IMG/VR virus record: IMGVR_UViG_3300035190_001334
Span: 32,001-96,000 of that record
DNA length: 64,000 nt
Strand: one strand, 5' to 3'
Origin: a virus
Shown: positions 228-64,000 of the stretch, piece by piece
How positions within the stretch are numbered: the stretch's first letter is position 1
How the letters are laid out: every line of letters begins with the position of its first letter
Notes under the pieces: model-generated
Seen by the model: only the letters and a program-made list of their open reading frames with translations
What the model was told of the DNA's origin: nothing
The model's database searches: none
Program-made: the position numbers and the translations under genes

Positions 228-920
228 CTAGTATATAAACCCGTTATAACGGCGCACTTTAAAATTAGCAAAAGGAGAAGTTTTACGCGATGCATCCATT
301 GTTCTCTGCCTGCCTCTTCTTCTGACACTTCCTTCAGGTTCGTTTGGTTTTAGTTCCTCAGGCTTTATTTTCTGCGACTTAGGACTAATTCTTTCTGTGG
401 TAGCGCCAACTGGATTAAGATTATTCAAATCAGTAGGTCTAGAAGCACCAGATTGAGTTTGACCACTTGCATTTGGCACAGTAATAGCTGTAGTGTCGAT
501 AGTTTGTTGACTTGCAGGTAATTGTGCTTGCTGCTTAGGCGCGTTTGGAGTAAATGGCTGATTGTTAATCGGTGTCTGGGTTACATTTGTAGCTGAAGCA
601 TTTGTAGTAGCAGGTAAAAGAGCCTGATTACCAACTTGACCAGCTTTACGCGCTTGCCAAGCATTTCTAAGGCTTGAACCGCCATAACCAGCAGCACCTC
701 CTAATGCAGCACCACCAGCTACTTGACCAGCAAGATTACCAATCGATTTATCATCACTGCCAAGGTAATTAATAGCACCAACACCTGCACCGATGCCAGC
801 ACCAATTTTAGCCGCACCACCAGAAGTAGATAATGCTTTGCCAGCTAATCCTGCCCAATCAAAAGGTGCAAAATTTGCATTTTTATATTTAGTTGCTCTT
901 GCGTATGCTGAAATTCTCAT
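228..920 (-). CDS. Glycine-zipper protein with ANF motifs; putative internal virion protein
   Basis: YARATKYKNANF at the N-terminus, Gly-zipper hairpin IGAGIGAGVGA...VAGGAALGGAAGYG, PFANF near the C-terminus. Confidence 0.65.
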   Translation of the reverse strand: MRISAYARATKYKNANFAPFDWAGLAGKALSTSGGAAKIGAGIGAGVGAINYLGSDDKSIGNLAGQVAGGAALGGAAGYGGSSLRNAWQARKAGQVGNQALLPATTNASATNVTQTPINNQPFTPNAPKQQAQLPASQQTIDTTAITVPNASGQTQSGASRPTDLNNLNPVGATTERISPKSQKIKPEELKPNEPEGSVRRRGRQRTMDASRKTSPFANFKVRRYNGFIY

Positions 921-8162: not shown

Positions 8163-8330
8163 ATGATGAAACACTTCACTCATTTCGCTAAGGCTCATTC
8201 GTCGGGCGCTAACTTTGCAAATATTTATCAAACAGGGCTACAAAATTTGATTAGTCCTGTTGTAGAAAAAGAAACTAAAAAATACGTCAGAAAAAAGAAA
8301 GAGCAAGCAGAGGCAGAAAAGGAGGGTTAG
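8163..8330 (+). CDS. 55-aa small protein with ANF motif (not in ORF track)
   Basis: MMKHFTHFAKAHSSGANFANIYQTGLQNLISPVVEKETKKYVRKKKEQAEAEKEG; starts 4 nt after the FN3 gene stop. Confidence 0.6.
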   Translation: MMKHFTHFAKAHSSGANFANIYQTGLQNLISPVVEKETKKYVRKKKEQAEAEKEG

Positions 8331-14309: not shown

Positions 14310-15055
14310 TATGCAATAGGAATTTTTGTAGAAACTGGAGATTGTGTTGCAAATTTATTACGAATATATCTTGCGCCTTTAGTGATGCCAGTTCCATCTG
14401 CTGTGGCACGACCAGCAGCACCTAGAAATGCCCCTGTAACTGCACCTTGAGCGCCACGTCCAATCATCTTGCCAACCCGACCTAAGCCAGATGTATTAGC
14501 CATCTCTTCTTCTGACTCTCCAAGACCGCCTCCTTTAGCCAATCCCGCACCAAGACCGACAAGACTGCCAATTTTAGCTGCTCCGCCAATGCCGAAATTT
14601 GCAAAATGCTGGAAATTACCTGAAAATCCTCCATATTGACCAGTTTGGAATTGTTGTTGACTTTTCCAATTTCCGACACTCATCTTCTTGCGAACCACAC
14701 CTCCTGCATCATAAAATTCATCAGGAGCAAGAGGTTTTTGACCGTTTCTAGGCGCTTGTTGCTTGCTAAGACCTCTACCTACCGATTGCGATGCCAAAGC
14801 TTCTGTACGTGCGTCTGGAGCAGTGCCATATTTAATATTTGCAGAACGTTGGTCGCGAGTTAATGAAAATGGCGAGTTATTTAGCTTCTGATTGCCAATG
14901 GCAGCTACATTTTTCTGGTTGAAAGCATCTATAACACCTTGCTTTGTTTTAGGTTGATTAGCAAATTGTTGACCTTTGTTTTTCAAAGTGTTTAGTACTG
15001 CTTGACCTTGAGTAGCCAAGTTTTTAAAGAAGAAGTCGGAGGTTTGGTATGCCAT
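14309..15055 (-). CDS. Glycine-zipper protein with ANF motif; putative internal virion protein
   Basis: FSGNFQHFANF followed by the module IGSLVGLGAGLAKGGGLGESEEEMANTSGLGRVGKMIG. Confidence 0.65.
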   Translation of the reverse strand: MAYQTSDFFFKNLATQGQAVLNTLKNKGQQFANQPKTKQGVIDAFNQKNVAAIGNQKLNNSPFSLTRDQRSANIKYGTAPDARTEALASQSVGRGLSKQQAPRNGQKPLAPDEFYDAGGVVRKKMSVGNWKSQQQFQTGQYGGFSGNFQHFANFGIGGAAKIGSLVGLGAGLAKGGGLGESEEEMANTSGLGRVGKMIGRGAQGAVTGAFLGAAGRATADGTGITKGARYIRNKFATQSPVSTKIPIA

Positions 15056-39327: not shown

Positions 39328-40572
39328 TTATGATAGCAGAGATTGTAAAGCTTCAAGTCTAGCTAAATGTGCTTCTTCGGGTGTGTTGAAACTGCCGACA
39401 CGCTTAGTTTTGTTGTTTACAGATATAACAGAGTAAAACTTGTTGTACTTAGGATACACTCCAACAGGTAATTCTCGCTCTTTTTTAGGTTTGTTAAAAA
39501 GTTCTGCAAAAGATTCATCACCATCATAATAATATTTTTCGGCTTTGATACGATGCTCTCTTGCTTCCTCTTCTGTACCAAAGTTACCTACAGAAAATGT
39601 TTTATTGTTGACTGTAATACAGGCTGTGTAAGTACCATGCCCATTTCTACTGACTCCAACGCCTTTACGCTTTTGGTTAGTTTTAGTTTTAGCTTTTGAA
39701 CGCGCAGCCTCTAATTCTTTCTTAAATTCATGTTGTCCATCCCAATATACTTTCTCAGCAAGACTTCTCACTAGACGCGCTTGCTCTTCAGTTTCGTACC
39801 TACCGAGTTCTGTAGTTTTCCCATTGTAAAAAATACTTGCTGCCCAACTTCCACTTTCAACCAAACGTACTCCTAACCCATAGATTCTGGAGTTAGCTAT
39901 ATACTTACCGTCTTTTTCTACTCCTCTTCTGTGGGTAAACAACTCATCTAATTCTGATTGTTTTTCCGCGATACCATCAATATACAATTCTTCGGCAACT
40001 TTTCGTACTTGTCTTGCTAATTCTTCTGTTCTATATTTACCAAGACAAACTTTTTTATTCGTTCCAATCTCAACCTTTATAACTACACCCCAACAATCAT
40101 CCGCGTATTTTGTTACACCAGACCCACGAACTAATCTAGCTTTTGATAACTTTAAACGTGTCTCTTCTGAAACAGCCTTACCAAAATTAGGATTTTTCTC
40201 TCCTTTATTGTTTTCCGACATCTTCTTTCTTGTATTTTCCGATATAGGAATAATTTCAGCATCAGGATTTGTAATCTTCAATACGTTATAGCATAAAGAC
40301 CAGTCCTCTACGCCATCTAAATAAGTTTGCTCTAATTGTCTAATTTCTTTTACTGTAGCGTTTTCCAAAAGTTCTACAATCTCAAAGAAGAAATTATCTT
40401 CTCCGTTTTTAGTGAAAGAAGCCTGTAGTTGCTTATTACCGTGTTTACCTCTTCTTAATCTTGATAAGTGAGTACTTTTTCTGTAATTGAGATTGTTGCT
40501 TGAACCAATGTAATATTTTCCATTGATTTTATTCGTGATTTTGTAAATTCCAGCCGATTTAGGGAAGTCCAT
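39328..40572 (-). CDS. GIY-YIG endonuclease with NUMOD3 and four AP2-like domains
   Basis: GIYKITNKINGKYYIGSS; repeats LGKYRTEELA, LGRYETEEQA, VGNFGTEEEA, VGSFNTPEEA. Confidence 0.9.
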   Translation of the reverse strand: MDFPKSAGIYKITNKINGKYYIGSSNNLNYRKSTHLSRLRRGKHGNKQLQASFTKNGEDNFFFEIVELLENATVKEIRQLEQTYLDGVEDWSLCYNVLKITNPDAEIIPISENTRKKMSENNKGEKNPNFGKAVSEETRLKLSKARLVRGSGVTKYADDCWGVVIKVEIGTNKKVCLGKYRTEELARQVRKVAEELYIDGIAEKQSELDELFTHRRGVEKDGKYIANSRIYGLGVRLVESGSWAASIFYNGKTTELGRYETEEQARLVRSLAEKVYWDGQHEFKKELEAARSKAKTKTNQKRKGVGVSRNGHGTYTACITVNNKTFSVGNFGTEEEAREHRIKAEKYYYDGDESFAELFNKPKKERELPVGVYPKYNKFYSVISVNNKTKRVGSFNTPEEAHLARLEALQSLLS

Positions 40573-40734: not shown

Positions 40735-41982
40735 TTAGGAGATGACAGTTAAACCGTCAGCAGGGTTGAAAGTGGTAAATTCCGCAAGATTTACTGAACT
40801 TTCCAAGTTAGCCAATTTAGCAAATTTACGTGCGCTTCCAGTGCGACCAATAGTAGGAGCCGCAACCAACTGCATACTTGCAGTGTTGGTGATGGAAAGA
40901 GGTGGGTCGCCAGCTTTGGTGTACGTGTTGACGTAGATACCTGCTTTTCCTCCGTTCTCAAGAGTTCCGCCAAGAATACGATTAAACTGACCTTGACGAC
41001 TTAGGAATACTACAGTACCTTCATCAAGTACACGAGTAGGAACTGACTTGCCTTCATTGTCTGTTAGTTCTACATAGTCGTCAACTAAGACGAACTTAGG
41101 TAAAAATCTGCGAGTTAGAACTTCATTAACTTGGTCAATAGAAGGAGTACCAGTAATAACGTTACCGATAACATTAGCTGCAACTACAGCTTCCTTAACC
41201 GACTTACAACGAACCATATTCAAAAGAAGACGTTCGCTAATTGCAATTTCGTCAGCAGGGAACCCGTTAACCCACTTGTAGTTAGAGTGCATATCTACAA
41301 GGTCTTGTAAAGGGTCAGCAGTTTCGTGCTGAGTCCAGTCGCGCTTGAGAGAGTCAACAGTTTCAGTTCCGTTGTAATCCGTTTGATATACGGGCTGAGG
41401 GAACATATTTCTGCGAACAGGCTGAGCTTTTAACCAATTTAACGAAACGTTCAGACCTGTACGACGGTCGGTATACGCCATTTTACCAGTTTGTAGAGTC
41501 TGCCAAGCAAGATAGTCAATCAAATTGATGTGACCACGAACAAGAGAAGCTACAGAACCAAAAATGACCTTAGCCAATTCGTTATCTTGCCCTAACTGCA
41601 CTTTACCTTCAGAAACTTGAATATTCTGAATGGTGATGTTGCGTAACTTAGCGATTTCGCTAACTTCTTGCATACGCCACTGCGTATCTTCATCCCAGTG
41701 ATACGAAATCGCTGCTTTGAAGTTACGAGCTTGAATGCGAGAGAAGTCGCCTTTTTTCGCTTCAGGATAATCCTGACCAGTTGCAACAAGAGACGCAATG
41801 GGGTCTGTGGTTGTCCCAAGATAAGCAAGCCAATCACGACCTGTCTTTTCAATCAAGGGAACATAAGTGTTGAGAACTTTGCTGCGTTCTTTGGTCTGAC
41901 GAAGGGTATTGTTGATAACCAAGTCCGCCGCCTTAGCAGCGCGTGCTTCTTTTAAAAAGCTTTCAATAGGGGACATTGCCAT
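40735..41982 (-). CDS. Major capsid protein (lambda gpE / Phage_cap_E-like)
   Basis: 415 aa; LAWQTLQTGK, W....ADPLQDL, G.PADEIAIS motifs; downstream of scaffold and decoration genes. Confidence 0.85.
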   Translation of the reverse strand: MAMSPIESFLKEARAAKAADLVINNTLRQTKERSKVLNTYVPLIEKTGRDWLAYLGTTTDPIASLVATGQDYPEAKKGDFSRIQARNFKAAISYHWDEDTQWRMQEVSEIAKLRNITIQNIQVSEGKVQLGQDNELAKVIFGSVASLVRGHINLIDYLAWQTLQTGKMAYTDRRTGLNVSLNWLKAQPVRRNMFPQPVYQTDYNGTETVDSLKRDWTQHETADPLQDLVDMHSNYKWVNGFPADEIAISERLLLNMVRCKSVKEAVVAANVIGNVITGTPSIDQVNEVLTRRFLPKFVLVDDYVELTDNEGKSVPTRVLDEGTVVFLSRQGQFNRILGGTLENGGKAGIYVNTYTKAGDPPLSITNTASMQLVAAPTIGRTGSARKFAKLANLESSVNLAEFTTFNPADGLTVIS

Positions 41983-42922: not shown

Positions 42923-43834
42923 TTATAGTCCGAAATCCAGACCCATAGCAATCAAGTCGCCCTTAGCAGCTTCTTCAAGGCTAGATGAGAAATTAGCAGT
43001 TGCAACTTCTTCAGCGCTAACAGAGAAGTCAGTGAACTGAGTCACATTAGCAACATTACGCAATAGAGAGTAAGCAAACTCCGACATATTGAGTTGTTCT
43101 TGCAAATCACGCGCACCGTTAGTTTGAGCGATACCAGTAAACTGAGCAACTCGTTGGCGAGGGTCAGAGAAGTTACCGATAAGAGCTTCCTTCATTGCAG
43201 GGGTGATAACACCGTCAACAACGTCTTGACTAACACGGGCGTTCAAATCGGTCAGTGCTTGAGATAATTGTGCTTCAAAGTTAGCTTGAGAGAATTGGGC
43301 TTCAAGAGCTTCTTTTTCTGCACGAAGTTTTTGGATTTCGCTAACTACTGTCTTATTGAAATTAGCTTGAATTGCTGGGTTGTATGCCGCAGCGTAATTA
43401 GCAGCGTCTTCAGTCATAGGTTCTTCTGCGCCTCCTTCAGCGCCTTCTGTTGCGTATTGTGCTTCTAGAGCTTGGCGGTCTTGTTCTAACACTCCATCAG
43501 CAACTTCGATAAGTTTATCCAAGTCTTCTTCGGTAGCATCAGGGAATGCAGAAATCATTGCTTCCAAATCTTCGACATTATCAACGATGTTTTCGCCACT
43601 AATGTAGCCAGTTACATCTTCTTCGCTTAATCCAGTTGCCTGAACGAGAGCTTGAATACCAGCACTGATTGCAGGGGAAGTATCCTCTGGGTCAGTAATT
43701 AGGTCAGCAAACTGAGCTTCAATAAGGTCAAGCAAGAGTTCGCCAAAAGCATTGGTTGGATTGAGTTCGGTCGCTTGACCTTCTCCTTCTATACCAGCGT
43801 CCTGAGCGCCTAAATCTTGTTGTTCTTCATCCAT
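42923..43834 (-). CDS. Capsid scaffolding protein
   Basis: Acidic, coiled-coil, DGVITPAMKE motif; several ANF/AQF motifs. Confidence 0.65.
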   Translation of the reverse strand: MDEEQQDLGAQDAGIEGEGQATELNPTNAFGELLLDLIEAQFADLITDPEDTSPAISAGIQALVQATGLSEEDVTGYISGENIVDNVEDLEAMISAFPDATEEDLDKLIEVADGVLEQDRQALEAQYATEGAEGGAEEPMTEDAANYAAAYNPAIQANFNKTVVSEIQKLRAEKEALEAQFSQANFEAQLSQALTDLNARVSQDVVDGVITPAMKEALIGNFSDPRQRVAQFTGIAQTNGARDLQEQLNMSEFAYSLLRNVANVTQFTDFSVSAEEVATANFSSSLEEAAKGDLIAMGLDFGL

Positions 43835-43933: not shown

Positions 43934-45607
43934 CTATTCGATTTCTATAGAGCGTGGAACTGTGTTGGGATTCTTGAATGCGTCTGGATTATCCTTGCGA
44001 CGACTCTGTAAACGTTGGTTAGCTTGATAACGATTGACACCAGCGCCAGCAACTGAACCAACTCCACGACCTACACCAGCACCTAATCCAGTCATACCAA
44101 GTACTTTACCTGCACGACCGACCAAACCTGTGCTTCTTCGTTGCTCTTCTGTTTCATTGATACCAGAACCTTCAAGAGCGCCTAGACCCGCACCAACAGC
44201 AGTACCGACATTAGCGGCATTGATTTGAGGAGATAGATTGCCAAAACGATTTGCAGCACCTCTAGCAACTTTTTGAGCGCCATTAACTAAACCAGTAGGA
44301 ATGATGCCAAACGATGCAGACTTACGGATGCTTTTGCTATAACGAGCTTCGTTTTCTTGTTTCTTTTGTGCCAATTTAGCAGCAAGTAGACCACCACCAG
44401 CAAGTGCAGTACCTCCAACACCGATTGCAGCATATTTAGCTGCCTTATCCGTGTCAAGAACTTTAGCTACAGAGTTAAGCGCATCATGAGTACCTACAGC
44501 CGCTTTAGCAGCCCCATAGTTAACTTTGTCTGCAATACCAAAAGGAAGACTTGCGACAATACGATTACCAGTCACAGAAGCTAAATTACCTCCACCAGCC
44601 TTAGTCGCAGCTTTACGAACCACTTTAGCTGCGGGTTGTGTGATTAATTTGCCAGCAGATACAAGACCTTTATTAATTTGGTCGCCAATGCCAAAATTAG
44701 CTTCTTGTTGACGTTTGAGGAAGTTTGCTGATTTGCGGATTTCTTTATTGAAGTACTTGCCTACTGGCTTGCCCGATTCAATCATCGAGTTGATTTCTTT
44801 TACCCCCATACTTGCAGGTACTTTAGGGTCGCGCAATTTCTTTTTCTGCATCTTGCCGCGCAAAGTTGACTCTAAGCTGACGACTCCAGTATTGTTTTGA
44901 GGGATATATGTGCTTCCGTGTTGGATTAGGCGTTGAATTGTAGCTGGGTCTTGGAAATTTGCTGATTTGCGAATCATTTTACTTAACTCTGTAGTTGAAT
45001 TTACGTTTACTGTGTTTGGTGGGATACCTCCACCTGCTTCTTTTTTCATTCTGACTTTACCAAGCAAACTACCAAAAAATTGCTTAGTAGTTTCTATATC
45101 TTGTTTACCTTTGTTAATAGCTTGGTCAATCAACGGTGTTGGCTCAGGTCGTGTAGATTGACGTAGTAGTTCTTCCGCCATCCTAGCTTCTCTTTGGTCA
45201 AGATTCGGAGCTACAACCTCTTGCACTTTATTTTTTACAGCTTCAACTTCCTTACCAACTCTATTAGCAGCTTTACGAACGCCTCTAGGATTTGCAGCTT
45301 CGTGTTGAGCTACAACAGCCTCTCGTCTTCGTAATTCTAGTTCAGGAGCCACAGCAGCTTTATAACGATTTACACCATATCCAGCCCCAGCACCAAGTCC
45401 AGCACCGACAGTAGAGCTTGTCAGCACCTTACCTAAACGATTACCGACATTAGTAGCTCTCTTTTCTGCATCTGATTCAAATATGCCAGCACCTTGTAAT
45501 AGTCCAAGTCCACCGCCCACACCAGCACCAATTTTCACTGCATTAGGTATGGCAGAAAGAAGTGAGGGAGCGAAGCTGGCTGATTTTCGTAGTAGTTTTT
45601 TAGTCAT
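43934..45607 (-). CDS. Glycine-zipper polyprotein with RKSA(S/N)F junctions
   Basis: RKSASF twice, RKSANF twice, QEANF; two copies of the G-x-G-x-x-E-[ST]...G-x-R-x-GK module. Confidence 0.7.
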   Translation of the reverse strand: MTKKLLRKSASFAPSLLSAIPNAVKIGAGVGGGLGLLQGAGIFESDAEKRATNVGNRLGKVLTSSTVGAGLGAGAGYGVNRYKAAVAPELELRRREAVVAQHEAANPRGVRKAANRVGKEVEAVKNKVQEVVAPNLDQREARMAEELLRQSTRPEPTPLIDQAINKGKQDIETTKQFFGSLLGKVRMKKEAGGGIPPNTVNVNSTTELSKMIRKSANFQDPATIQRLIQHGSTYIPQNNTGVVSLESTLRGKMQKKKLRDPKVPASMGVKEINSMIESGKPVGKYFNKEIRKSANFLKRQQEANFGIGDQINKGLVSAGKLITQPAAKVVRKAATKAGGGNLASVTGNRIVASLPFGIADKVNYGAAKAAVGTHDALNSVAKVLDTDKAAKYAAIGVGGTALAGGGLLAAKLAQKKQENEARYSKSIRKSASFGIIPTGLVNGAQKVARGAANRFGNLSPQINAANVGTAVGAGLGALEGSGINETEEQRRSTGLVGRAGKVLGMTGLGAGVGRGVGSVAGAGVNRYQANQRLQSRRKDNPDAFKNPNTVPRSIEIE

Positions 45608-45609
45608 GG

Positions 45610-46971
45610 TTATCCTTGGTATCTATTGCGTCCAGATTCTCTCAAAATCTTGGTTGCATGGTAAAGTCTAGAATTGTCTTGCTGACCAGTTAAAGATTGA
45701 GGAATAGCTGTAGGTGCTTGGTAGTCATTGTAACTACCGATTGACCTTGGTGAGTAACCTACTTCTTCTCCTGTTAAAGATTGGGGGATGCCTACAGGAG
45801 ATTGATAATCGCCGTTCCATTGAGGAGGAAGTGGCAGTCTTTCGGAAATTTTATCGCGTAAATACTTACCGCTTTTTAAACCATATTCTTTGGCTTGACC
45901 ACCGTAACCTTCAGCTTGTTGGCGTAAGCCTTCAAAGTCAATATCAGGTGTTTCGCCCTTCAAAGCCTTGTAAGCAAGCAAACCACCACCAGCTAAACCA
46001 GCAAGACCTGCTCCAGCACCCAGACGTTGTTTAACGGAAGAGCCTTTAATTGCATCAATAACACCAAACTCAGCTACAGCTTGAATATATGCACGTTTGA
46101 ATTGAATATAAGTAGAATTATGTTTACGTGTGAATTTTGTCATGTTTTTGTTGTTTTTGTTAAAGTGAGAACCTAGTAAATAAGATGTAGCACCTGCCGA
46201 AGCAAGACCACCTCCTACAATACCCAAACCTGTTAAAGCGGCATTTTTAGTATTTTCGCGATTCAGATTATTTAAGTCATTATAGTACCGATTTTCGGTC
46301 TTTTCTTGTTCGCTGTTGGATAATCTTTTATATTTTTTTGAAGGCTCTATTCTGTTTTTGAATCGGTCTACTTTATTGAGGGCATTGTCATATTCTGTGT
46401 CTTTATTGGGTTGTAAAGAGGCTACAAGATTACCTCCAGCTAACCCGCCTAATACTCCAGAACCAATTATATTTTTATATTCGACGTATTTAGTTAGTTC
46501 TTCTGGAGATAAGTCTTGAACGTTATCAGGTAAAGAAAAGAAATTAGCGAAATGTTGTTTGTCGCCACTGAAATCGTTGTTAAGACCGTAACCTAATCCT
46601 ATAGCACCTCCAACTGCGCCAGCACCTAAAGTGCCAACACCGATGCCTTTAGCTTTATTAAGCCATCTGCTAACTTCTGCATCTGATTCTCTATTGCGAG
46701 TCGAGTCACCAATAACTCTATCTCTCTGAACTCTGAGCTTTTGTAGCTCTCTTATTTTTTGTTTCTCTGGTAGGTTGCTTTCTAAGAGTGCGCGAGATTG
46801 TTGGTCGTAGTCTACATTTGCATCAGACTCTCTACCTAAAGAACGAGCTTTACTTCGATAATAAGCATCTTCTCCCCACTTGTTACCGATATATTTACCA
46901 ATAACTCCGCCACCAAGAGCTAATCCTGCCCCTGCGCCAACTCCACCTAATGCGTAATCTTCAAAGTCCAT
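45610..46971 (-). CDS. Glycine-zipper polyprotein with ANF/AEF junctions
   Basis: Three Gly-zipper modules separated by FSGDKQHFANF and FKRAYIQAVAEF. Confidence 0.7.
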   Translation of the reverse strand: MDFEDYALGGVGAGAGLALGGGVIGKYIGNKWGEDAYYRSKARSLGRESDANVDYDQQSRALLESNLPEKQKIRELQKLRVQRDRVIGDSTRNRESDAEVSRWLNKAKGIGVGTLGAGAVGGAIGLGYGLNNDFSGDKQHFANFFSLPDNVQDLSPEELTKYVEYKNIIGSGVLGGLAGGNLVASLQPNKDTEYDNALNKVDRFKNRIEPSKKYKRLSNSEQEKTENRYYNDLNNLNRENTKNAALTGLGIVGGGLASAGATSYLLGSHFNKNNKNMTKFTRKHNSTYIQFKRAYIQAVAEFGVIDAIKGSSVKQRLGAGAGLAGLAGGGLLAYKALKGETPDIDFEGLRQQAEGYGGQAKEYGLKSGKYLRDKISERLPLPPQWNGDYQSPVGIPQSLTGEEVGYSPRSIGSYNDYQAPTAIPQSLTGQQDNSRLYHATKILRESGRNRYQG

Positions 46972-46975
46972 AGTG

Positions 46976-47908
46976 TTATTGATACTTATTAGTTAATTGT
47001 ACATCATCAGCCTGTTTTTGTTTTCTACGCTCGTCATAAGCTTTCTTAAGTGTGTAACCACCATGAACTAGACCGATAGCATTAGCTGCTGCAACTGTTT
47101 CACCTAAACGACTTTTACCTACGTTTGGTAGTGCAGAAGGAATAGGATGTGCAGCTTGTCTTTCTATTTCTAAGCTGCGACCATGAAAGAACCCATCATC
47201 TCTACCCATTTGCTCCTCTAAAGCAGCACGACGTAAAAACGGTTTAGATAAGTCATCGACAAATTTATATTTGCCTTCTGGCTCTACCTTATAAAGCTCA
47301 CCATCTAAAGCTGCCAACCTACCACCGTCCATTGCAGCGTTAAGAGTAGAGTAGAAATTTTTCTGAGGTAATCCGAATTTATATTTGTAGGTAACAGGCT
47401 CATCGTATTCTCTTGTAATTACTAAGGAGGGGTTGACAACACCCTTTTTAGATAAACTTTCATAATTTTGCCTGATGTTCTTGTCACTAATTAAATCTTG
47501 AAAACTAGGGTATCTTGGAATGTTAGATACATCTACATCCTCACCACTGACTCCAGCAGCGTTTGCCGATAGTATTGTTGGGTGAGTGTGAGCCATTTGT
47601 AGATTCTCAAGACCTCCTAAGTTGTTGGGGTAGCCTTTTACCCAAGGAACTATTCTATCAAGTGGAATTGACGTTGAAATAGCTTCTTTACTCGGAAGAT
47701 TAATTGCATCTTTGAAAGTACGATTACCTAGTGTGTTTATGTAGTTCGCAGAAGTATAGCCGACCTCAGAATTTGGATACTTACTGACTAAACCTCGCAA
47801 ACTATTCTCTGCATGGTCTTTTAGGTTAGGGTATTCATCTACAGATTTACCTGTAAGATTTTCTAGATAGTCGTCCCAACTAATACCAAAATTTACAAAG
47901 TGTCTCAT
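46976..47908 (-). CDS. JAB/JAMM-like metalloenzyme candidate with N-terminal HFVNF tag
   Basis: MRHFVNF start; NSEVGY...AHTHP...YPSFQDL matches E...HxH...SxxD. Confidence 0.55.
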   Translation of the reverse strand: MRHFVNFGISWDDYLENLTGKSVDEYPNLKDHAENSLRGLVSKYPNSEVGYTSANYINTLGNRTFKDAINLPSKEAISTSIPLDRIVPWVKGYPNNLGGLENLQMAHTHPTILSANAAGVSGEDVDVSNIPRYPSFQDLISDKNIRQNYESLSKKGVVNPSLVITREYDEPVTYKYKFGLPQKNFYSTLNAAMDGGRLAALDGELYKVEPEGKYKFVDDLSKPFLRRAALEEQMGRDDGFFHGRSLEIERQAAHPIPSALPNVGKSRLGETVAAANAIGLVHGGYTLKKAYDERRKQKQADDVQLTNKYQ

Positions 47909-47910
47909 AG

Positions 47911-49611
47911 TTACAAAGCACCCCAATTTACATTTTTCAATCCTGTTCGCAACACAGACTTAACATCACCATTCAAAGCCGCATCAATAATCCGATTACG
48001 AGAACCGTCATCGATTACATCCCCTTTAGCTTTTGCTATTAATGCGCGACGGAGTTGCTTATCCTTAATTGCGTCAAGAGCAGCAAGTTTTTGTGCCTCG
48101 AACACCTCTTCTTGTTGGTCAGCAGCCTTTTTTCTATTGTAGATACCGTAAAGTGTACCTCCAATAGCTAAGCTTGGGGTAATTAGTGGGTCGAAAAAAT
48201 TTGCAGTATTAGAATTGTCGTTGAATTGTAGCTGAGTACCTACTAAGTAGCCTTCCCTAGCTAAGGAGCCTCCTACTAACCCCCCAGCCATACTAGCACC
48301 TAAATACTTGCCAGTTCTACCTACATTTTGGAAGTACTTATCTCTCAAACTTCCTTGTTGAAGTTTTTTTTCTTCGGGAGACAAGTTATTGAATCTTTGT
48401 AATTCATCTACAAATTCTTGGTTTTGGTTTTTAAATTGCTCCCTAGAAGTGCCAGTCAGTCTTCGTGCGACACTCCCACCAAGTAAAGCACCGCCAATAC
48501 CTGAACCTAAATAACCAGCACCATATAGCAACTGAGCATCTTCAGGAGACATAAACTCAGCAATCTTGCCTTTACTTCTAGAATACCGAGTAGTCTTGCC
48601 TTTTCTTTTCTGCACTTCGGCTTGCTGTGCAGGAGTAAGTCTGTCAAGAGGATTATCCGTAATACCTTGAAGTAAAGGGTTGCCAGTAATATTAGCAGCT
48701 TCGCGAATCAAGTTGTCTGCATGGTATTGAGGACTGTCGAAATAGCTAGCTGCAAAGTCTTGAGCATTTTTATCTTTGAGGCTATTTACCTTGTAGGCAT
48801 CAAGCGCTCTTTGTTTGTTGAGCTTAGATAGCAAACCATACCCAGCAACTAATGTACCTCCGATTGCAGCAAGTGGAAGTGCTTTTTCTTTTTTAATGAA
48901 GAAAGGGTTACGAACACCAATCTTAGGAAATGCGAAGTTGGCTGGTGTAACTAAAGGGGCAGCACTAAAAAAGTTGTATGGCACTCTCACCTGAGTTTGA
49001 GGTTGTTGGGCTTGCGCTTGACGTTGTTCCAATAGTAGATTCCTTTTTGCAATTATTTCTTGTACTTTGTCGCGGTGAGCTTGAGCCTGAGCTTGTTTTT
49101 CTTTCTCTGCTTCTTTAGTTTTATGATTTTGATATAGCAAAGCCCCCGCCGCTAAAGGTGCAACAGTTAAACCTCCAAGAGTACCGACAACTGCTGCCTC
49201 ATTAGCCCCAAATTTATCAATTAATTTGTTAGATACATAATTTACAGCAGGAGCAACTAAAGGGAGATTGCTATTTGCATATTTATCCCGAAGTCTTTGG
49301 GTTTCTGCCTTGGCTACTCTAGCTTTTTTAGCTACTGCTCTATCACCTTGAGCATTTCCGATTTCAGTTGATGTTGGCTCAGGGGCTTTAGGTGGCTCAG
49401 AAGCCCGTCTTTCGCGTTCACGCGCTATTTTGGCGCGTTCCTTCATAACAGCTTCTTCATTCATCTGCTGTTGACGAGATTTTCCTCTGGGGCGATTATC
49501 TTTCTGCTTTCTAAAGAAAGGGTCATTCCCCCAGTTAGTTTCCCTCCCCTCCCTATTGTTAGGGGCGTATTTCTGTTGTCTAGCCGCAAACTCAGCTTTC
49601 AAACTTAACAT
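47911..49611 (-). CDS. Glycine-zipper polyprotein with ANF/AEF junctions
   Basis: KAEF, VTPANF, KIAEF and NTANF separate four modules, each with a Gly-rich hydrophobic helix. Confidence 0.7.
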   Translation of the reverse strand: MLSLKAEFAARQQKYAPNNREGRETNWGNDPFFRKQKDNRPRGKSRQQQMNEEAVMKERAKIARERERRASEPPKAPEPTSTEIGNAQGDRAVAKKARVAKAETQRLRDKYANSNLPLVAPAVNYVSNKLIDKFGANEAAVVGTLGGLTVAPLAAGALLYQNHKTKEAEKEKQAQAQAHRDKVQEIIAKRNLLLEQRQAQAQQPQTQVRVPYNFFSAAPLVTPANFAFPKIGVRNPFFIKKEKALPLAAIGGTLVAGYGLLSKLNKQRALDAYKVNSLKDKNAQDFAASYFDSPQYHADNLIREAANITGNPLLQGITDNPLDRLTPAQQAEVQKRKGKTTRYSRSKGKIAEFMSPEDAQLLYGAGYLGSGIGGALLGGSVARRLTGTSREQFKNQNQEFVDELQRFNNLSPEEKKLQQGSLRDKYFQNVGRTGKYLGASMAGGLVGGSLAREGYLVGTQLQFNDNSNTANFFDPLITPSLAIGGTLYGIYNRKKAADQQEEVFEAQKLAALDAIKDKQLRRALIAKAKGDVIDDGSRNRIIDAALNGDVKSVLRTGLKNVNWGAL

Positions 49612-50630
49612 CTAGCTGTACCTCGTACATACTTCTTGGTTGTGCCAATTGACAAGTTGAACTGAGCCAACTTATTACTACCACGCTTATAAGTAGTTTG
49701 TTGCTGTAATTGTGGAATTGTCATGCCACTCTCAGCACCACCTTGCAATTGAGCCTGAGTTTGTGCAGCTTGGTCTTGCTGAGTCATTACGCCAGCTTGT
49801 GCTTGCTGATTCATTTGTTGCATTAACTGAGTCAAACCGAGCAGTTCGATAATCTTGACACTGAACCCATTTAACTGAGAGTAAATCAATTGCAACAACA
49901 CTTCTGGGCTATCAATGTTAATCGCATCGTTGTCATAAGCATTTTTGAGCAAGAGCCACAATTTCTGGCAAATTTCGTTGTATTCGTCTTGAAGGTCGTC
50001 AATTGCTTGGTCATTAGCATCAAGCTCATCCCAAGTTACTGCGTTGCCACTATCTGGTATTCCAGAGAAGTTAGCGGTCATTGCTTTGCCCACTTTTTTA
50101 TGAAATAGTCCCATGTTAGGAATTGCAGGAATAGGTACAAGGCTGAGTTCCATGATGCGATGTTCGTTAGGGTCAAGGTTAAGTCCCATGCTAACGCTCT
50201 TGACACCACTACGCAATGCTTCAATACCTTTAGCTGCTGCAACCTTTACGCCACTTAAGAACATCCCAAGCTTGCCTACTAAATGCTTGGAATTTTGGTT
50301 TGGTAAATCTGCTTCCGTAATTACTTTTGTGAACGCTCGTCCTGAAATACTTCCAATAGTATTTGGAATATCTTTTTTGTGGTCAGCACAAACAGGTACA
50401 ACTGTGCCGCTATCGATAGCTCGGTTGGTATGCTCAACGATTGTATTGAGACGTTCGGGACTAAATTCGTGTTCAACATCAGTACTATCGGTAAACTTGC
50501 CTTCAGTGGCTACAAGAGCCGTGTACTCGTCTTTAATAGGAGTGCCAGAAACCAACACCTGCCCCAACTCAAAGTTGGCTCTTGATGCTGGGGCTTTAAA
50601 ATAAGCGATATTAGGTGAGGTTTTTTTCAT
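49605..50630 (-). CDS. Prohead protease (Mu gpI-like)
   Basis: EGKFTD, VPVCADH, KSVSMG, ELSLVPIPAIPNM motifs; upstream of scaffold and MCP. Confidence 0.75.
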   Translation of the reverse strand: MKKTSPNIAYFKAPASRANFELGQVLVSGTPIKDEYTALVATEGKFTDSTDVEHEFSPERLNTIVEHTNRAIDSGTVVPVCADHKKDIPNTIGSISGRAFTKVITEADLPNQNSKHLVGKLGMFLSGVKVAAAKGIEALRSGVKSVSMGLNLDPNEHRIMELSLVPIPAIPNMGLFHKKVGKAMTANFSGIPDSGNAVTWDELDANDQAIDDLQDEYNEICQKLWLLLKNAYDNDAINIDSPEVLLQLIYSQLNGFSVKIIELLGLTQLMQQMNQQAQAGVMTQQDQAAQTQAQLQGGAESGMTIPQLQQQTTYKRGSNKLAQFNLSIGTTKKYVRGTARC

Positions 50631-50674: not shown

Positions 50675-50914
50675 ATGAACGACAAGTCACTCTTTAACCA
50701 GCAAGTCGGGGATAAGCTACGCCGCCTTCGTAAAGCCAAGAACAAATCTCAGGCTAGTGTCGCCGCAGATTTCTCTTTTGGGCAAGATGTTGTTAGTGAG
50801 ATTGAACGTGGGGTAAAAACAATCAGTGCATTTGAGTTGGCAGCTTTTAGCGCGTATTACGAGAAGCCTATCGTGTATTTTTACATGAACTCGCCTCTAC
50901 CCTCTAAGAAATAA
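50675..50914 (+). CDS. XRE-family helix-turn-helix regulator
   Basis: VGDKLRRLRKAKNKSQASVA...VSEIERG. Confidence 0.85.
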   Translation: MNDKSLFNQQVGDKLRRLRKAKNKSQASVAADFSFGQDVVSEIERGVKTISAFELAAFSAYYEKPIVYFYMNSPLPSKK

Positions 50915-52496
50915 TACTGACACTTCGAGCTACCTTATTTACAATATTCTTTTCTGCCCCAACAAAATTGAGTGCTTCAAGTCCTGATTCTACTATGCGG
51001 GGTAAGTTGGCTGCATCTGGTACGGGCAATCGAGGTGTTGTAAACGTCGAGTAAATAGCTTTGGCTGTGGCATTGCCTAGTGATTTGTTAGATGCTAGTA
51101 GTGCAAGTCCAGCGACGAATGCAGTAGCAGCGATAGCAATCTTAATTGGTGTACCTAAGCCGCCTTGTGGTGGACGATTTGGAGGTTGTTTTTTAGGGTC
51201 AAAATCTTCTTCGTCAATGTCTTCCGAGAGCGAGTAATAACACATACAACTACAATGGAAAGGTATAGAAGGTTTGCTGTGATTCCGCCACACGGTAGGG
51301 TTTCCGCGTTTGTAGTTAATAACATCCCCTCCGCTTCTTTGATTCTCTATTATCTCGAACAAGTAGTATTCAAGACCATCTTGAAGTTCACAATCTTCAC
51401 ATGGTACTGGGTCAGTTCTCTTACTTCCACTTGCTAATCTCTTGTACCTACTAATCAGTGCGTATTCCCTATCAACATTCCATCTAAAGCGTTTGTATCT
51501 ATCAGCTTTACCTCCAAATGCCGCTACCTTCCCGAAGTTGTATGCAATTGCCAACTCGGTCTTCACAATTACATCTGGCGACTGTTGCTTAAACGCGCCT
51601 TGCAAGCCTTGCTGGTCTTTGTTGATAATGTTCCTAATCCTTACTTTGAGAAGGTTAAGGTCGTATTCGTACTTGTTACGTTGAGATTTGATGTTAGTGA
51701 TGTACTCTCGATTATCAGCTAAGAATAATGCAACAGCCTTACGAATTTGCTTGTTACTTTCGGCTGAGTATGATGTTTGCAATACTCGACGACGCTTACC
51801 TAAGTAGTTACTTGATATGAAGTTCTGTTTCTCGTCGTTATTACCATATAAGAAGTTCATCATGGCAGCTTTACCTGCATTAGTGCTGTCACTAATCTTG
51901 TTGAGCATATAGACATTACGAGAGACTTCATCAGCTATCTTGACACGCTCTTGTATCTTGGCAACATCGTTAATATTCGTTTGTTCAGCACGTTGATTAA
52001 GAAGGTTGTTAACTGCATTGCGGGTCAAACTATACCTAATCTTATTTTTGTTCTCTGCCTCGTAACTCTTTGGTGCTGCGGCAAACTCTACCGACAGTTC
52101 CTTGGTGTCTTCTGTTATTACTTGCGTGTCGAAGTATTTACGAATATCATCATCGCCATACTCGTACAAATAGTCGTACATCTGATGTCTCAGCGCCAAT
52201 TTAATCATTGACTCGAAGTTAGTAGTCAGAACTTTACCGAACTCGACCTGCACCTTAGCAAAATACTTGTTAGTGATATCACTCACATTCTTTTCTGCAA
52301 ACTTGTCGAAGATGGTGCTTGGTACTTCATAGATGCTGGTATTCGATTTGGCAATCCACTTAGCTAGTTCATCGACAAAGGTGTTCTTAGCAAAGTCACT
52401 GTTGATTGCTCTGCGAACTTGCAGAACTGACTCAGCCAACGCTTTGAAATATTCTTGCGTCTTGAACTCTTTGAAGCTATTGGACTGTTTTCGCAT
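50904..52496 (-). CDS. Head morphogenesis protein (Mu gpF / SPP1 gp7-like)
   Basis: IVKTELAIAYNFG, CEDC..QDG, IPFHCSCMC; hydrophobic segment near the C-terminus. Confidence 0.75.
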   Translation of the reverse strand: MRKQSNSFKEFKTQEYFKALAESVLQVRRAINSDFAKNTFVDELAKWIAKSNTSIYEVPSTIFDKFAEKNVSDITNKYFAKVQVEFGKVLTTNFESMIKLALRHQMYDYLYEYGDDDIRKYFDTQVITEDTKELSVEFAAAPKSYEAENKNKIRYSLTRNAVNNLLNQRAEQTNINDVAKIQERVKIADEVSRNVYMLNKISDSTNAGKAAMMNFLYGNNDEKQNFISSNYLGKRRRVLQTSYSAESNKQIRKAVALFLADNREYITNIKSQRNKYEYDLNLLKVRIRNIINKDQQGLQGAFKQQSPDVIVKTELAIAYNFGKVAAFGGKADRYKRFRWNVDREYALISRYKRLASGSKRTDPVPCEDCELQDGLEYYLFEIIENQRSGGDVINYKRGNPTVWRNHSKPSIPFHCSCMCYYSLSEDIDEEDFDPKKQPPNRPPQGGLGTPIKIAIAATAFVAGLALLASNKSLGNATAKAIYSTFTTPRLPVPDAANLPRIVESGLEALNFVGAEKNIVNKVARSVSIIS

Positions 52497-57508: not shown

Positions 57509-58493
57509 TAGAAAATGACCCCATATTACGATTTTTGTGTAAAATAACTACTTTTATCTTAACATCATCCTTATATATCAGTAAGGTGTAGGTATTCTCT
57601 GGTTTGCTTATCTTAGGTAAATATCCGTTCTCAAATCTTATATCTGCATCTGCTTTGAAACTTACAATACCAGTAAAATTACTTAGATTGAGAGTGAAAA
57701 ACTTAAGGTGGTTGTTATTAATAACTAGTTGTATGTTCAGTACCTTCACTCCGTTGGTGCAGACTACGTTAGTTTCGGAATGTTGGATAGTGTCAATAAT
57801 GAGACTTGATAGTGGCTGTGTTGCTGATATGTTTTGGCAGTTATATATTAGATTATTAAGTGATTTTCCATTGCAGTTAAGCGCACCTCCAAGTACAGGC
57901 GACCTATCCCACCTAATACTTAATGGAAGCACTTTTTTAGTGTTACCAAAACCCCCTTGATTAGTTGGAGCAAAATTAGATACTAGGCAAGCATAAGGTA
58001 TCGGAGCTAACTCATACTCTATATCATCAAATTTACTTAGTGCTGAAGCTTCAGGGGCATAGTACCACTCTTCGTTTGAGGCATTATAAGTTAGTGCATA
58101 TTTGTTTCGCGCTACCGTATCAACTACATCACTCAGTTGTTTTATCTGATATTCTTTTCTGACCGTGTTAATCACTTGCCCCAAAGAGTTAACTGCCAAG
58201 TAAGTGTCAGCACCACCTATTACTACACCTGAAATATCTCTTAAGTAGATGTTAGGTACGGTTGTCGTTAGTTGCCCTTTGTAAAAACGAAGGATAGCTC
58301 CATCAGAGTATGTATAGTACTTAATAAAGTCTTTAAGGTTGCGTTTGCTATTACCTACAATTGCTACACTATTTTTATATGTCTTTGTGGTTATGTTTTT
58401 AGACATAAATCCTAAAAGCAAAGTGCCTACAGGAATCAGATTGTAGTCAGCAGTATTTTCATTTACTGTATGTGGAAATATGCTAACGCTCAT
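57498..58493 (-). CDS. Tail fibre-related protein
   Basis: QLSDV repeat, DRSPVLGGALNCNG motif; resembles 58490..60331. Confidence 0.55.
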   Translation of the reverse strand: MSVSIFPHTVNENTADYNLIPVGTLLLGFMSKNITTKTYKNSVAIVGNSKRNLKDFIKYYTYSDGAILRFYKGQLTTTVPNIYLRDISGVVIGGADTYLAVNSLGQVINTVRKEYQIKQLSDVVDTVARNKYALTYNASNEEWYYAPEASALSKFDDIEYELAPIPYACLVSNFAPTNQGGFGNTKKVLPLSIRWDRSPVLGGALNCNGKSLNNLIYNCQNISATQPLSSLIIDTIQHSETNVVCTNGVKVLNIQLVINNNHLKFFTLNLSNFTGIVSFKADADIRFENGYLPKISKPENTYTLLIYKDDVKIKVVILHKNRNMGSFSNGT

Positions 58494-63613: not shown

Positions 63614-63990
63614 TCGTCGATGTTGTTACGGCGATAGTACTTAGCATTTGCATAGGCATCTTTTAACCCTTCTTTGGCTACGCCTCCTGTAAAACCAAGT
63701 CCACCACCGACAATTCCGCCAACACCCGCATTGCCGACTAATTTACCTAATCTCCCCAAGCCTGTAGTTCTAGCTTTTTCTTCTTCTGACTCTCCAACAC
63801 CCGAACCTTTAACTAGTCCAGCAGCAGCCCCAATACCAGCACCAATTTGTACTCCTCTGTTCTGTGCAAAGGCTTGACCTACTCCCTTGGCTGCACTGCC
63901 AGCATCTTGAACGTTGTGCCAATAAGGACGGGCTTTATCTACTATTGCAGGTAAGGGATTTGTGAAACCAAAATTAGCGAAATGTTGCAT
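63610..63990 (-). CDS. Glycine-zipper protein with N-terminal QHFANF; putative internal virion protein
   Basis: MQHFANF; IGAGIGAAAGLVKGSGVGESEEEKARTTGLGRLGKLVG. May extend beyond the window edge. Confidence 0.65.
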   Translation of the reverse strand: MQHFANFGFTNPLPAIVDKARPYWHNVQDAGSAAKGVGQAFAQNRGVQIGAGIGAAAGLVKGSGVGESEEEKARTTGLGRLGKLVGNAGVGGIVGGGLGFTGGVAKEGLKDAYANAKYYRRNNIDD

Positions 63991-64000
63991 CTGTGTGTGT

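What the first reader, a model, noticed from the sequence alone, without database searches (positions are those of the whole stretch)
43934..49611. Repeated glycine-zipper hairpin modules: candidate DNA-ejection or membrane-channel proteins
Seen: most ANF-delimited units contain a Gly-zipper helix, or two flanking a charged loop of variable length. One unit, (I/V)GxxxGxxxGxxxGxGxxE[ST]xxxxxxTxxxxRxGK, occurs four times (twice in 43934, once each in 14309 and 63610). Longer-loop variants occur in 45610 and 47911. Established: GxxxG zippers mediate membrane helix packing and oligomeric pores. Inference: these are released head proteins that insert into the host envelope to form or guard the ejection channel, or membrane-active effectors.
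Basis: partly seen in the sequence, partly recalled or inferred. Interest (0 to 1): 0.8.

Follow-up and report, generated by a model that had tools for sequence, protein, structure and literature searches.

The report
Glycine-zipper cargo proteins of a cyanophage head
A Pseudanabaena cyanophage carries a fast-changing block of genes between its head protease and scaffold; they encode basic proteins built from glycine-zipper helix pairs, whose counterparts in phage Pam2 were found in virus particles, so they are probably packed in the head, but whether they act on the host membrane is untested.

Summary
The strict pattern occurs exactly four times in the 145-kb genome, at the places named. A profile of it finds only 30 protein clusters among 1.84 billion, all apparently from this phage lineage.

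The window is a relative of Pseudanabaena siphophages Pam2 and PA-SR01. The four genes lie between a Mu gpI-like prohead protease and the scaffold. Their flanks are 74-96% conserved, while this block is reshuffled in every relative, always at A-x-F sites, which the protease and scaffold also carry.

Published mass spectrometry found the Pam2 orthologues gp15, gp17, gp46, gp57 and gp189 in virions.

My best reading (0.5) is protease-cut internal head cargo, comparable to T4 internal proteins but built from glycine-zipper hairpins.

The membrane or ejection-channel part is unproven:
- The four-fold module is less hydrophobic than buried segments of soluble proteins here.
- Its loop is conserved and highly charged.
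- AlphaFold2 gives no confident fold.
- Longer, uncharged arms in 45610 and 47911 are better membrane candidates.

One module is always fused to a Bud32/RIO-like kinase.

This scan noted the same module in related genomes, and similar glycine-zipper cargo in other phage lineages. I call it a new variant of a known kind.

The parts
47911..49611 (-). Cargo gene 1 (566 aa, basic). It has three predicted A-x-F-delimited units, with sites at aa 224-226 and 470-472. Gly/Ala-rich hydrophobic helices lie at aa 141-159, 244-262, 361-385 and 437-460.
   Evidence: It is 76% identical to Pam2 gp15, which is MS-positive in virions. It has no strict GxxxGxxxG.
46976..47908 (-). Cargo gene 2 (310 aa from the ATG). 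It has an MRHFVNF leader, an enzyme-like body with an invariant E..HTHP..PSxxD pattern, and a conserved basic C-terminal tail. It has no glycine zipper.
   Evidence: alignment A4. No Pfam, NCBIfam or PDB match. Absent from the Pam2 and PA-SR01 cassettes.
45610..46971 (-). Cargo gene 3 (453 aa). Unit 1 (aa 1-144) has two uncharged Gly-zipper arms of 20-22 residues (aa 6-25 and 109-130) around an 80-residue charged loop, and ends in HFANF. Unit 2 has further arms at aa 168-186, 244-266 and 315-337.
   Evidence: Unit 1 is conserved in 13 homologues, and the downstream units are swapped exactly at A-x-F.
43934..45607 (-). Cargo gene 4 (557 aa; 85 K+R against 42 D+E). Predicted units are aa 1-12 (leader), 13-218, 219-296, 297-305, 306-433 and 434-557. 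They are bounded by (I)RK[SA]A[NS]F or EANF.
   Evidence: There are 77 homologues with the same boundaries but shuffled units. It is 84% identical to Pam2 gp17, which is MS-positive.
45368..45529 (-). Four-fold hairpin module, copy 1 (aa 27-80 of the 43934 protein).
   Evidence: Nearly every residue is invariant among 27 orthologues.
44027..44206 (-). Four-fold hairpin module, copy 2 (aa 468-527 of the 43934 protein).
14381..14569 (-). Four-fold hairpin module, copy 3 (aa 163-225 of the 14309-15055 protein), directly after FQHFANF.
   Evidence: Pam2 gp46, which matches the N-terminal part only, is MS-positive.
63652..63846 (-). Four-fold hairpin module, copy 4 (aa 236-300 of a 313-aa protein whose start lies beyond the window, at window-equivalent 64551). 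It follows MQHFANF and a Bud32/RIO-like kinase domain.
   Evidence: Pam2 gp189 is MS-positive. The kinase-module fusion is present in 6 of 6 related genomes.
49605..50630 (-). Prohead protease (Mu gpI-like) with A-N-F at aa 18-20 and at aa 186-188.
   Evidence: phrog_976 at E 5.7e-5. PA-SR01 authors' HHpred result, 'Mu-like prophage I protein'. Sites. It is 92-94% conserved in relatives.
42923..43834 (-). Acidic scaffold-like protein with three A-N-F sites.
   Evidence: Pam2 gp18 was not detected in virions.
228..920 (-). Dispersed Gly-zipper protein (230 aa) with ANF at aa 15-17 and 218-220.
   Evidence: It is 74% identical to Pam2 gp57, which is MS-positive. The module HMM does not match it significantly.

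Best explanation
The four genes are a hypervariable cassette of internal head ('cargo') proteins of a Pam2/PA-SR01-like cyanosiphophage.

Proposed mechanism:
1. They are made as basic precursors or polyproteins.
2. They are taken into the prohead together with the Mu gpI-like protease and the scaffold.
3. They are cut after the Phe of A-x-F sites. The site types are (I)RK[SA]A[NS]F, [QKR]HFANF, and short N-terminal leaders such as MRHFVNF or MTKKLLRKSASF.
4. The predicted pieces weigh about 9-34 kDa and most have pI 9.4-11.
5. The pieces stay in the DNA-filled head.

Most pieces carry one or two glycine/alanine-zipper helices. One particular module of about 60-75 residues recurs four times in this genome and 3-6 times in each relative. 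It consists of zipper helix, conserved acidic loop GE[ST]EEE[RK]..T..GR.GK, and a second zipper helix. It always lies shortly downstream of an A-x-F site.

I think the zipper helices let these otherwise unfolded peptides self-associate tightly. After leaving the head with the DNA, the longer uncharged arms (45610 unit 1, 47911) would bind or permeabilise the host cytoplasmic membrane. That could help DNA entry, or entry of co-packaged enzymes such as the kinase.

Shown here: the sequence pattern, its conservation and lineage restriction, and unit shuffling at A-x-F. Shown by others: virion presence of the Pam2 orthologues.
Inferred: cleavage, ejection, and any membrane activity.

Rough odds: packaged head proteins 0.8; cut at A-x-F 0.7; membrane-active after ejection 0.35-0.4.
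For: - Position between the protease (phrog_976) and the scaffold, upstream of the major capsid protein (phrog_29).
- ANF is seen 22 times against 8.4 expected genome-wide. It is concentrated in the protease, the scaffold and the Gly-zipper proteins.
- In 77 homologues of 43934 the unit boundaries are always RK[SA]A[NS]F although unit order differs. In the 45610 family, units are inserted or deleted exactly at A-x-F.
- Stand-alone module proteins start with M[QKR]HFANF, and several proteins end in ..NF.
- Pam2 orthologues are MS-positive in virions; the protease and scaffold are not.
- Flanking genes are 74-96% identical among five genomes, while the cassette differs in gene number and length. 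T4 internal-protein regions behave the same way, with the capsid targeting leader as the shared feature (PMC9026906).
- The predicted pieces are basic.
- No stable monomer fold is predicted: pLDDT 36 and 50.
- The module is under strong purifying selection.
- Secreted glycine-zipper effectors that permeabilise membranes, or carry an enzyme across them, are known: Tde1 (PMC10240207), and Tse4, CdzC/D and TelE (cited in PMC12955049).
Against: - No cleavage product, ejection or membrane activity has been observed for any of these proteins.
- The Pam2 table gives only presence or absence, with no peptides or termini.
- The four-fold module is too polar for a conventional transmembrane hairpin (+6 to +8 kcal/mol summed Hessa). 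Its first arm is short and its loop is conserved and charged.
- The tape-measure protein already has better membrane-type segments.
- The major capsid protein carries no ANF, so the protease's specificity is not anchored on a classical substrate.
- Pam2 gp46 is in virions without a module, so the module is not needed for packaging of that protein, and gp46 may be a tail part.
- Pfam glycine-zipper families match only below threshold, at E about 0.1.
Confidence: 0.5

Rival explanations
1. The proteins are internal head proteins that never touch a membrane. The basic, unfolded peptides coat or organise the packed DNA, or form an inner body. The glycine zippers serve only for tight helix-helix self-association inside the capsid.
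For: - The units are strongly basic.
- The four-fold module is too polar for a membrane-spanning hairpin and has a conserved charged loop.
- Orthologues are present in virions.
- Each paralogous module keeps its own invariant non-glycine residues, which suggests specific partners.
- T4 heads hold hundreds of copies of small basic internal proteins (PMC9026906).
Against: - The cassette is hypervariable, which fits host-interaction proteins better than an architectural role.
- The uncharged 20-22-residue arms in 45610 unit 1 look made for a bilayer.
- Fusion to a kinase suggests delivery into the host.
Confidence: 0.25
2. The four-fold hairpin module is a loading or anchoring device. It binds the inside of the prohead (capsid protein, protease or scaffold) and so carries attached cargo, such as the kinase, into the head. 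Cleavage at A-x-F then frees the cargo. This would resemble a T4 capsid targeting sequence or an encapsulin cargo-loading peptide.
For: - The module always lies next to an A-x-F site.
- It is fused to the Bud32/RIO-like kinase in 6 of 6 genomes, and that protein is in Pam2 virions.
- Its loop is strongly conserved, as expected for a specific binding surface.
Against: - Many module proteins are stand-alone, 113-141 aa, with no cargo at all.
- Proteins without the module (46976 family; Pam2 gp46 and gp15) carry only the short A-x-F leader, and two of those are MS-positive. The leader, not the module, is therefore the better candidate for targeting.
- A module of 60-75 residues is much longer than known targeting peptides (own knowledge).
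Confidence: 0.15
3. The proteins are membrane proteins of the infected cell, for example holin-like or superinfection-exclusion proteins, and not virion components.
For: - The glycine-zipper pattern itself.
- A weak sub-threshold match of 47911 aa 445-495 to the Pam3 gp28 holin family (E 0.043).
Against: - Orthologues were detected in purified virions.
- The genes lie inside the head-assembly block.
- The hydrophobicity is too low for Sec-type insertion.
- The A-x-F motif is shared with the protease and the scaffold.
Confidence: 0.05

Closest known systems
T4 internal proteins IPI, IPII, IPIII and Alt, with their capsid targeting sequence, cut by prohead protease gp21 (PMC9026906)
   Same: They are small basic proteins taken into the prohead core. 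They carry a short N-terminal leader that ends at the protease's cut site. They are retained in the filled head and delivered with the DNA. The proteins vary among related phages while the leader is shared.
   Different: - The motif here is A-x-F, not L/I-x-E.
- Several units are strung together as polyproteins with internal sites.
- The cargo is dominated by glycine-zipper helices.
- The phage is a long-tailed siphophage with a Mu gpI-like protease.
- Neither cutting nor ejection has been shown here.
Processed head, inner-body and ejection proteins of phiKZ-like giant phages, cut at S/A/G-x-E (own knowledge, not checked here)
   Same: Many head proteins are cut by the prohead protease at a short motif, including multiple internal cuts. 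Some products are ejected.
   Different: The lineage, motif and protease branch all differ. Those proteins are not known for glycine-zipper hairpins.
Ejection proteins of short-tailed phages: P22 gp7/gp16/gp20, T7 gp14/gp15/gp16 (PMC8954989, PMC8402733; titles and abstracts seen)
   Same: They are stored inside the head, must pass through the tail, change conformation, and build a conduit through the envelope.
   Different: - Those are large proteins of podophages that lack a tape measure.
- This is a siphophage whose tape-measure protein already has membrane-type segments.
- There is no sequence similarity.
Secreted glycine-zipper effectors: Tde1 N-terminal zipper (PMC10240207), and Tse4, CdzC/CdzD, TelE and LXG-T2 (PMC12955049)
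   Same: They are soluble when delivered. Repeated GxxxG helices permeabilise the target's cytoplasmic membrane. In Tde1 the zipper carries an attached enzyme across the membrane, which parallels the kinase-module fusion here.
   Different: Those are delivered by secretion systems, not a virion. There is no detectable homology, and the four-fold module here is more polar and has a long conserved acidic loop.
Pfam glycine-zipper families (PF13488 Gly-zipper_Omp, PF13441 Gly-zipper_YMGG, PF13436 Gly-zipper_OmpA; the SlyB-type transmembrane alpha-hairpin)
   Same: Gly-x3-Gly helices arranged as a hairpin.
   Different: Matches are only sub-threshold, at E about 0.1 and in two metagenomic relatives, not the window proteins. 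The Atlas similarity to a YMGG cluster is 0.76, below the level of a lead. These proteins have no lipoprotein signal.

Membership tests
Transmembrane glycine zipper (Kim et al. 2005; cited in PMC12955049) | (G/A/S)xxxGxxxG pattern with conserved 4-residue spacing | tested here: met
   The invariant Gly columns are 4 apart in both arms across 11 sequences of 31-48% identity. The pattern is enriched against shuffles in 43934 and 45610. 47911 does not meet the strict pattern.
Transmembrane glycine zipper (Kim et al. 2005; cited in PMC12955049) | The zipper lies in a helix hydrophobic and long enough to span a bilayer | tested here: inconclusive
   - Four-fold module: Kyte-Doolittle 1.0-1.3 over 19 residues, Hessa sum +6 to +8, and a first arm of about 12-13 residues between polar positions. 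It is not transmembrane-like.
- 45610 unit 1 arms (20-22 uncharged residues, +4.2 to +4.6) and 47911 aa 141-159 (+3.0) are borderline.
- Soluble proteins in the window reach +3 to +4.5.
- No dedicated transmembrane predictor was available.
Pfam Gly-zipper_Omp / YMGG / OmpA / 2TM families | Score above the Pfam gathering threshold | tested here: not met
   No hit at E <= 0.1 for any window protein. Two relatives score 12-13 bits against cut-offs of 25-27. NCBIfam gives nothing.
T4-type internal head proteins (targeting leader plus prohead-protease cleavage) | Present inside the mature head | tested here: inconclusive
   Orthologues in Pam2 were detected by mass spectrometry of purified virions (PMC9382816 supplementary table 2; orthology). 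Location in head versus tail was not resolved, and this phage itself was not analysed.
T4-type internal head proteins (targeting leader plus prohead-protease cleavage) | Short leader or internal sites cut by the phage's own prohead protease | not testable with these tools
   Only indirect support is available. The motif is shared with the protease and the scaffold, it is conserved at unit boundaries, and some proteins start with M..ANF or end in ..NF.
Phage ejection (pilot) proteins | Leave the virion with the DNA and enter the host envelope or cytoplasm | not testable with these tools
   No data exist. The library holds no paper on this for Pam2 or PA-SR01.
Bud32/RIO-type atypical protein kinase (for the domain fused to module copy 4) | Catalytic loop HxDxHxxN and a downstream metal-binding Asp | tested here: met
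   GH-x-D-x-H-x-GN and L-x-D-N are invariant in 13 sequences.
Bud32/RIO-type atypical protein kinase (for the domain fused to module copy 4) | Significant profile match to a kinase family | tested here: not met
   All profile scores are far below the curated cut-offs: NF011464 Bud32 at E 8.8e-5 (22 bits against 246) and PF03109 ABC1 at E 0.007.

The most novel reading that the evidence does not exclude
The hairpins are a virion-delivered membrane-translocation device. After protease release in the head and ejection, glycine-zipper hairpin peptides oligomerise in the cyanobacterial cytoplasmic membrane. There they open the way for the DNA, or for co-packaged enzymes (the Bud32/RIO-like kinase, the JAMM-like protein). 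This would be a phage counterpart of the Tde1 glycine-zipper translocation mechanism. A further twist is possible: the module's conserved E-[S/T]-E-E-E loop could be a substrate of the co-packaged acidophilic-type kinase, which would make the hairpin switchable. Earlier notes of this scan report similar glycine-zipper cargo next to other protease motifs in unrelated large phages. If so, this may be a widespread, undescribed class of phage entry proteins.
Probability: 0.3. Interest if true: 0.8.

Novelty: new variant of a known kind. Interest (0 to 1): 0.55.

Why it matters
How long-tailed phages of cyanobacteria get DNA and proteins across the envelope is poorly known. Internal head proteins have been studied almost only in T4, phiKZ-like and short-tailed phages.

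Here a cultured phage group (Pam2, PA-SR01) offers a compact and testable case. It has a hypervariable cassette of small basic glycine-zipper peptides with a recognisable cut-site tag, and a virion-borne kinase fused to the same module.

If the peptides are membrane-active, they would be a new class of phage entry factors. They would also be a natural way of tagging proteins for packaging into heads. If they are not, they still define a new kind of capsid-internal protein.

The library I could search holds no paper linking glycine zippers to virion proteins.

Tried and rejected
- **Family searches.** Pfam, PHROGs and NCBIfam gave nothing for the four genes and the dispersed module proteins. 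The exceptions were the protease, the capsid protein and weak kinase hits.
- **PDB profile searches.** The module profile (A3) and the 46976 family profile (A4) gave only chance-level hits.
- **AlphaFold2.** The whole 43934 protein with 27 homologues gave pLDDT 36. The module with 11 sequences gave pLDDT 50.5, a helix-loop-helix at low confidence.
- **Foldseek.** The module model against the PDB gave no match at E <= 0.001. I did not run further fold searches on such a weak model.
- **ESM Atlas.** It returned only unnamed viral clusters at 0.83-0.85 and a Gly-zipper_YMGG cluster at 0.76, both below the level of a lead.
- **More module copies.** An HMM search of the genome for divergent copies found none beyond the four.
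- **The look-up of encoding contigs.** I took genomic context from IMG/VR loci and whole related genomes instead.
- **Module as conventional transmembrane hairpin.** Rejected on hydrophobicity, arm length and loop charge.
- **JAMM assignment for 46976.** It rests on motif spacing only and has no statistical support.
- **PA-SR01 SDS-PAGE bands (16, 28, 47, 99 kDa).** They cannot be assigned to these proteins.
Full report
**What the window is.** The major capsid protein (40735-41982, phrog_29) is 95% identical to that of Pseudanabaena siphophages Pam2 (ON014754) and PA-SR01 (MT234670). The window is bases 32001-96000 of a 145,466-bp phage genome.

On the minus strand the head block reads as follows:
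- a 530-aa protein (50904-52496);
- a head maturation protease (49605-50630; phrog_976; the PA-SR01 authors called it 'Mu-like prophage I protein');
- four genes of unknown function (47911-49611, 46976-47908, 45610-46971, 43934-45607);
- an acidic scaffold-like protein (42923-43834);
- a 302-aa protein;
- the major capsid protein.

**Checking the observation.** The copies align at 34-48% identity. The invariant set is G-x3-G-x3-G-x3-G-x-G-x2-E, T, R-x-G-K and G-x3-G. With seven more relatives added, the conserved glycine columns keep a 4-residue spacing in both arms. That is what a helical zipper predicts, and simple glycine richness does not.

GxxxGxxxG is over-represented against shuffles in 43934 (9 against 1.0, 0 of 2000 shuffles) and in 45610 (5 against 1.0, 9 of 2000). 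By my reading of the units printed, 8 of 11 A-x-F-bounded units hold at least one Gly/Ala-rich hydrophobic helix.

Two caveats apply. 47911 has no strict zipper, and 46976 has none. The long-loop units are not homologous to the four-fold module. However, unit 1 of 45610 is a conserved long-loop hairpin family of its own.

**How rare the module is.** A profile of the four copies, scored against 1.84 billion representative proteins, finds only 30 at E <= 0.001. All look like the same phage lineage. Many are stand-alone proteins of 113-141 aa that begin M[QKR]HFANF and then consist of the module. Others are kinase-module fusions or head-cassette proteins.

IMG/VR holds 15 loci, mostly on contigs of 116-148 kb. 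Five related complete genomes each carry 3-6 hits: one on the kinase-like protein and two to four in the head cassette. No Pfam, NCBIfam, PHROG or PDB family matches.

**The A-x-F frame around the modules.** ANF occurs 22 times against 8.4 expected in the genome's proteins. It is concentrated in the protease (aa 18 and 186), the scaffold (three sites), the four cassette genes and the dispersed Gly-zipper proteins.
- In 77 homologues of 43934 the unit boundaries are always (I)RK[SA]A[NS]F, although unit order and number differ.
- In the 45610 family, units are inserted or lost exactly at A-x-F.
- Short N-terminal leaders end in the motif: MRHFVNF, MTKKLLRKSASF, MQHFANF, even MANF.
- Several metagenomic relatives end in ..NF.

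This pattern is what a cut site after Phe, doubling as a tag, would leave. It remains an inference.

**Evidence that these are virion proteins.** Supplementary table 2 of the Pam2 paper (PMC9382816) marks the proteins found by mass spectrometry of purified particles. Local tblastn pairs the window genes with Pam2 genes:
- 47911 with gp15 (MS-positive);
- 43934 with gp17 (MS-positive);
- the N-terminal part of 14309 with gp46 (MS-positive);
- 228-920 with gp57 (MS-positive);
- the 63610 protein with gp189 (MS-positive).

The protease gp14, gp16 and the scaffold gp18 are negative. This is the strongest external support. It does not say whether the proteins are in the head or the tail, whether they are cut, or how many copies there are.

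**Comparative anatomy.** Across five genomes, identity to the window proteins is 92-94% for the protease, 74-84% for the scaffold, 84-93% for the 302-aa protein and 77-96% for the capsid protein. The stretch between protease and scaffold changes in gene number and total length in each. In this window it has four genes and about 1886 aa.

46976 is present only here among the three cultured or deposited genomes. T4-like phages show the same contrast: their packaged internal proteins vary while the targeting leader is shared (PMC9026906).

**Can the hairpins be membrane helices?** I summed a simple Hessa scale over 19-residue windows.

| Segment | Hessa sum (kcal/mol) |
|---|---|
| Arms of the four-fold module | +6 to +8 (Kyte-Doolittle 1.0-1.3) |
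| Buried 19-mers of soluble proteins in the window (portal-like, 302-aa protein and others) | +3 to +4.5 |
| Tape-measure protein segments | +1.2 and +2.2 |
| 530-aa head protein, one segment | +1.5 |
| 45610 unit 1 arms (aa 6-25 and 109-130) | +4.2 to +4.6 |
| 47911 aa 141-159 | +3.0 |

Arm 1 of the module has only about 12-13 residues between polar or charged positions. The 17-residue loop is conserved and carries 7-9 charges. The four-fold module is therefore a poor conventional transmembrane hairpin.

The arms of 45610 unit 1 are 20-22 uncharged residues long, and 47911 aa 141-159 is similarly hydrophobic. These are borderline candidates, and short termini could cross a bilayer while the long charged loop stays behind.

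Such marginal hydrophobicity would be compatible with delivery in a soluble state, as for secreted glycine-zipper effectors (Tde1: PMC10240207; Tse4, CdzC/D, TelE: PMC12955049). I did not compare hydrophobicity with those proteins. The membrane idea is thus neither excluded nor supported.

**Structure.** AlphaFold2 gave pLDDT 36 for the whole 43934 protein with 27 homologues. It gave 50.5 for the module with 11 sequences, as helix 50-65, loop, helix 80-103. Foldseek found nothing significant.

The lack of a stable monomer fold fits proteins that must pass through a tail tube, or that fold only as oligomers. It is weak evidence. Within orthologues almost every module residue is invariant, and the two paralogous modules of 43934 each keep their own non-glycine residues. 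This points to specific contacts rather than a spacer.

**Attached cargo.** Module copy 4 sits at the C-terminus of a 313-aa protein. Its first 190 residues carry an invariant GH-x-D-x-H-x-GN ... L-x-D-N pattern. They give weak matches to Bud32, Kdo kinase, LanKC and ABC1/UbiB models, all below curated cut-offs.

The fusion is present in all six genomes, and the Pam2 protein is in virions. 46976 has an MRHFVNF leader and an invariant E..HTHP..PSxxD pattern reminiscent of JAMM metalloproteases, but there is no statistical support for this.

**Verdict.** The best reading is a hypervariable cassette of protease-processed internal head cargo built from glycine-zipper helix pairs. That makes it a new variant of the T4-type internal-protein theme, in a siphophage with an A-x-F tag.

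Notes from this scan show the same module in related genomes (e1-5878724, e1-2901665). They also show similar glycine-zipper cargo next to other cut-site motifs in unrelated large phages (for example e1-5632056, e1-5730557). I did not test those notes. If they hold, the theme is widespread.

Noticed in passing
window 46976-47908 (-): This 310-aa protein has an MRHFVNF leader and, in 9 homologues, an invariant E48 ... H107-T-H109-P ... S135-x-x-D138. The spacing recalls JAMM/MPN+ metalloproteases. There is no Pfam, NCBIfam or PDB support. The gene is absent from the Pam2 and PA-SR01 cassettes.
   Followed up: partly
window 63610-64000 (-), continuing to L005:610-1551 (-): A Bud32/RIO-like mini-kinase domain is fused through MQHFANF to one hairpin module. 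The fusion is conserved in 6 of 6 related genomes, and Pam2 gp189 is found in virions. The module loop E-[S/T]-E-E-E resembles an acidophilic-kinase site (untested idea).
   Followed up: partly
P0091, P0092, P0096, P0097, P0100, P0103; loci L009, L010, L015, L016, L017: Several metagenomic module proteins end exactly in ..NF. Many module-bearing proteins end in P-x-x-I-E-I-[D/E]. The first suggests that a C-terminal ..NF is the natural product end. The second is an unexplained conserved tail.
   Followed up: no
window 29240-34915 (-): The 1891-aa tape-measure protein has clearly more membrane-like segments (aa 519-537 and 659-677, the second a Gly-zipper type) than the four-fold head module. 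It also has three [AS][NS]F sites.
   Followed up: no
window 50904-52496 (-): The 530-aa head-block protein holds the most hydrophobic helix of the block (aa 451-469) and two Cys clusters. It is 88-90% conserved in relatives. Its Pam2 orthologue gp10 was not detected by mass spectrometry.
   Followed up: no
window 8327-9859 (-): A portal-like gene (PF04860, E 1.9e-6, below the gathering score) lies about 40 kb from the protease/scaffold/capsid block. A 613-aa MS-positive protein follows the large terminase at 58490-60331.
   Followed up: no
window 39328-40572 (-): A GIY-YIG-type endonuclease gene with about four tandem repeats of a roughly 55-aa DNA-binding-like unit is inserted directly downstream of the major capsid gene.
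   Followed up: no
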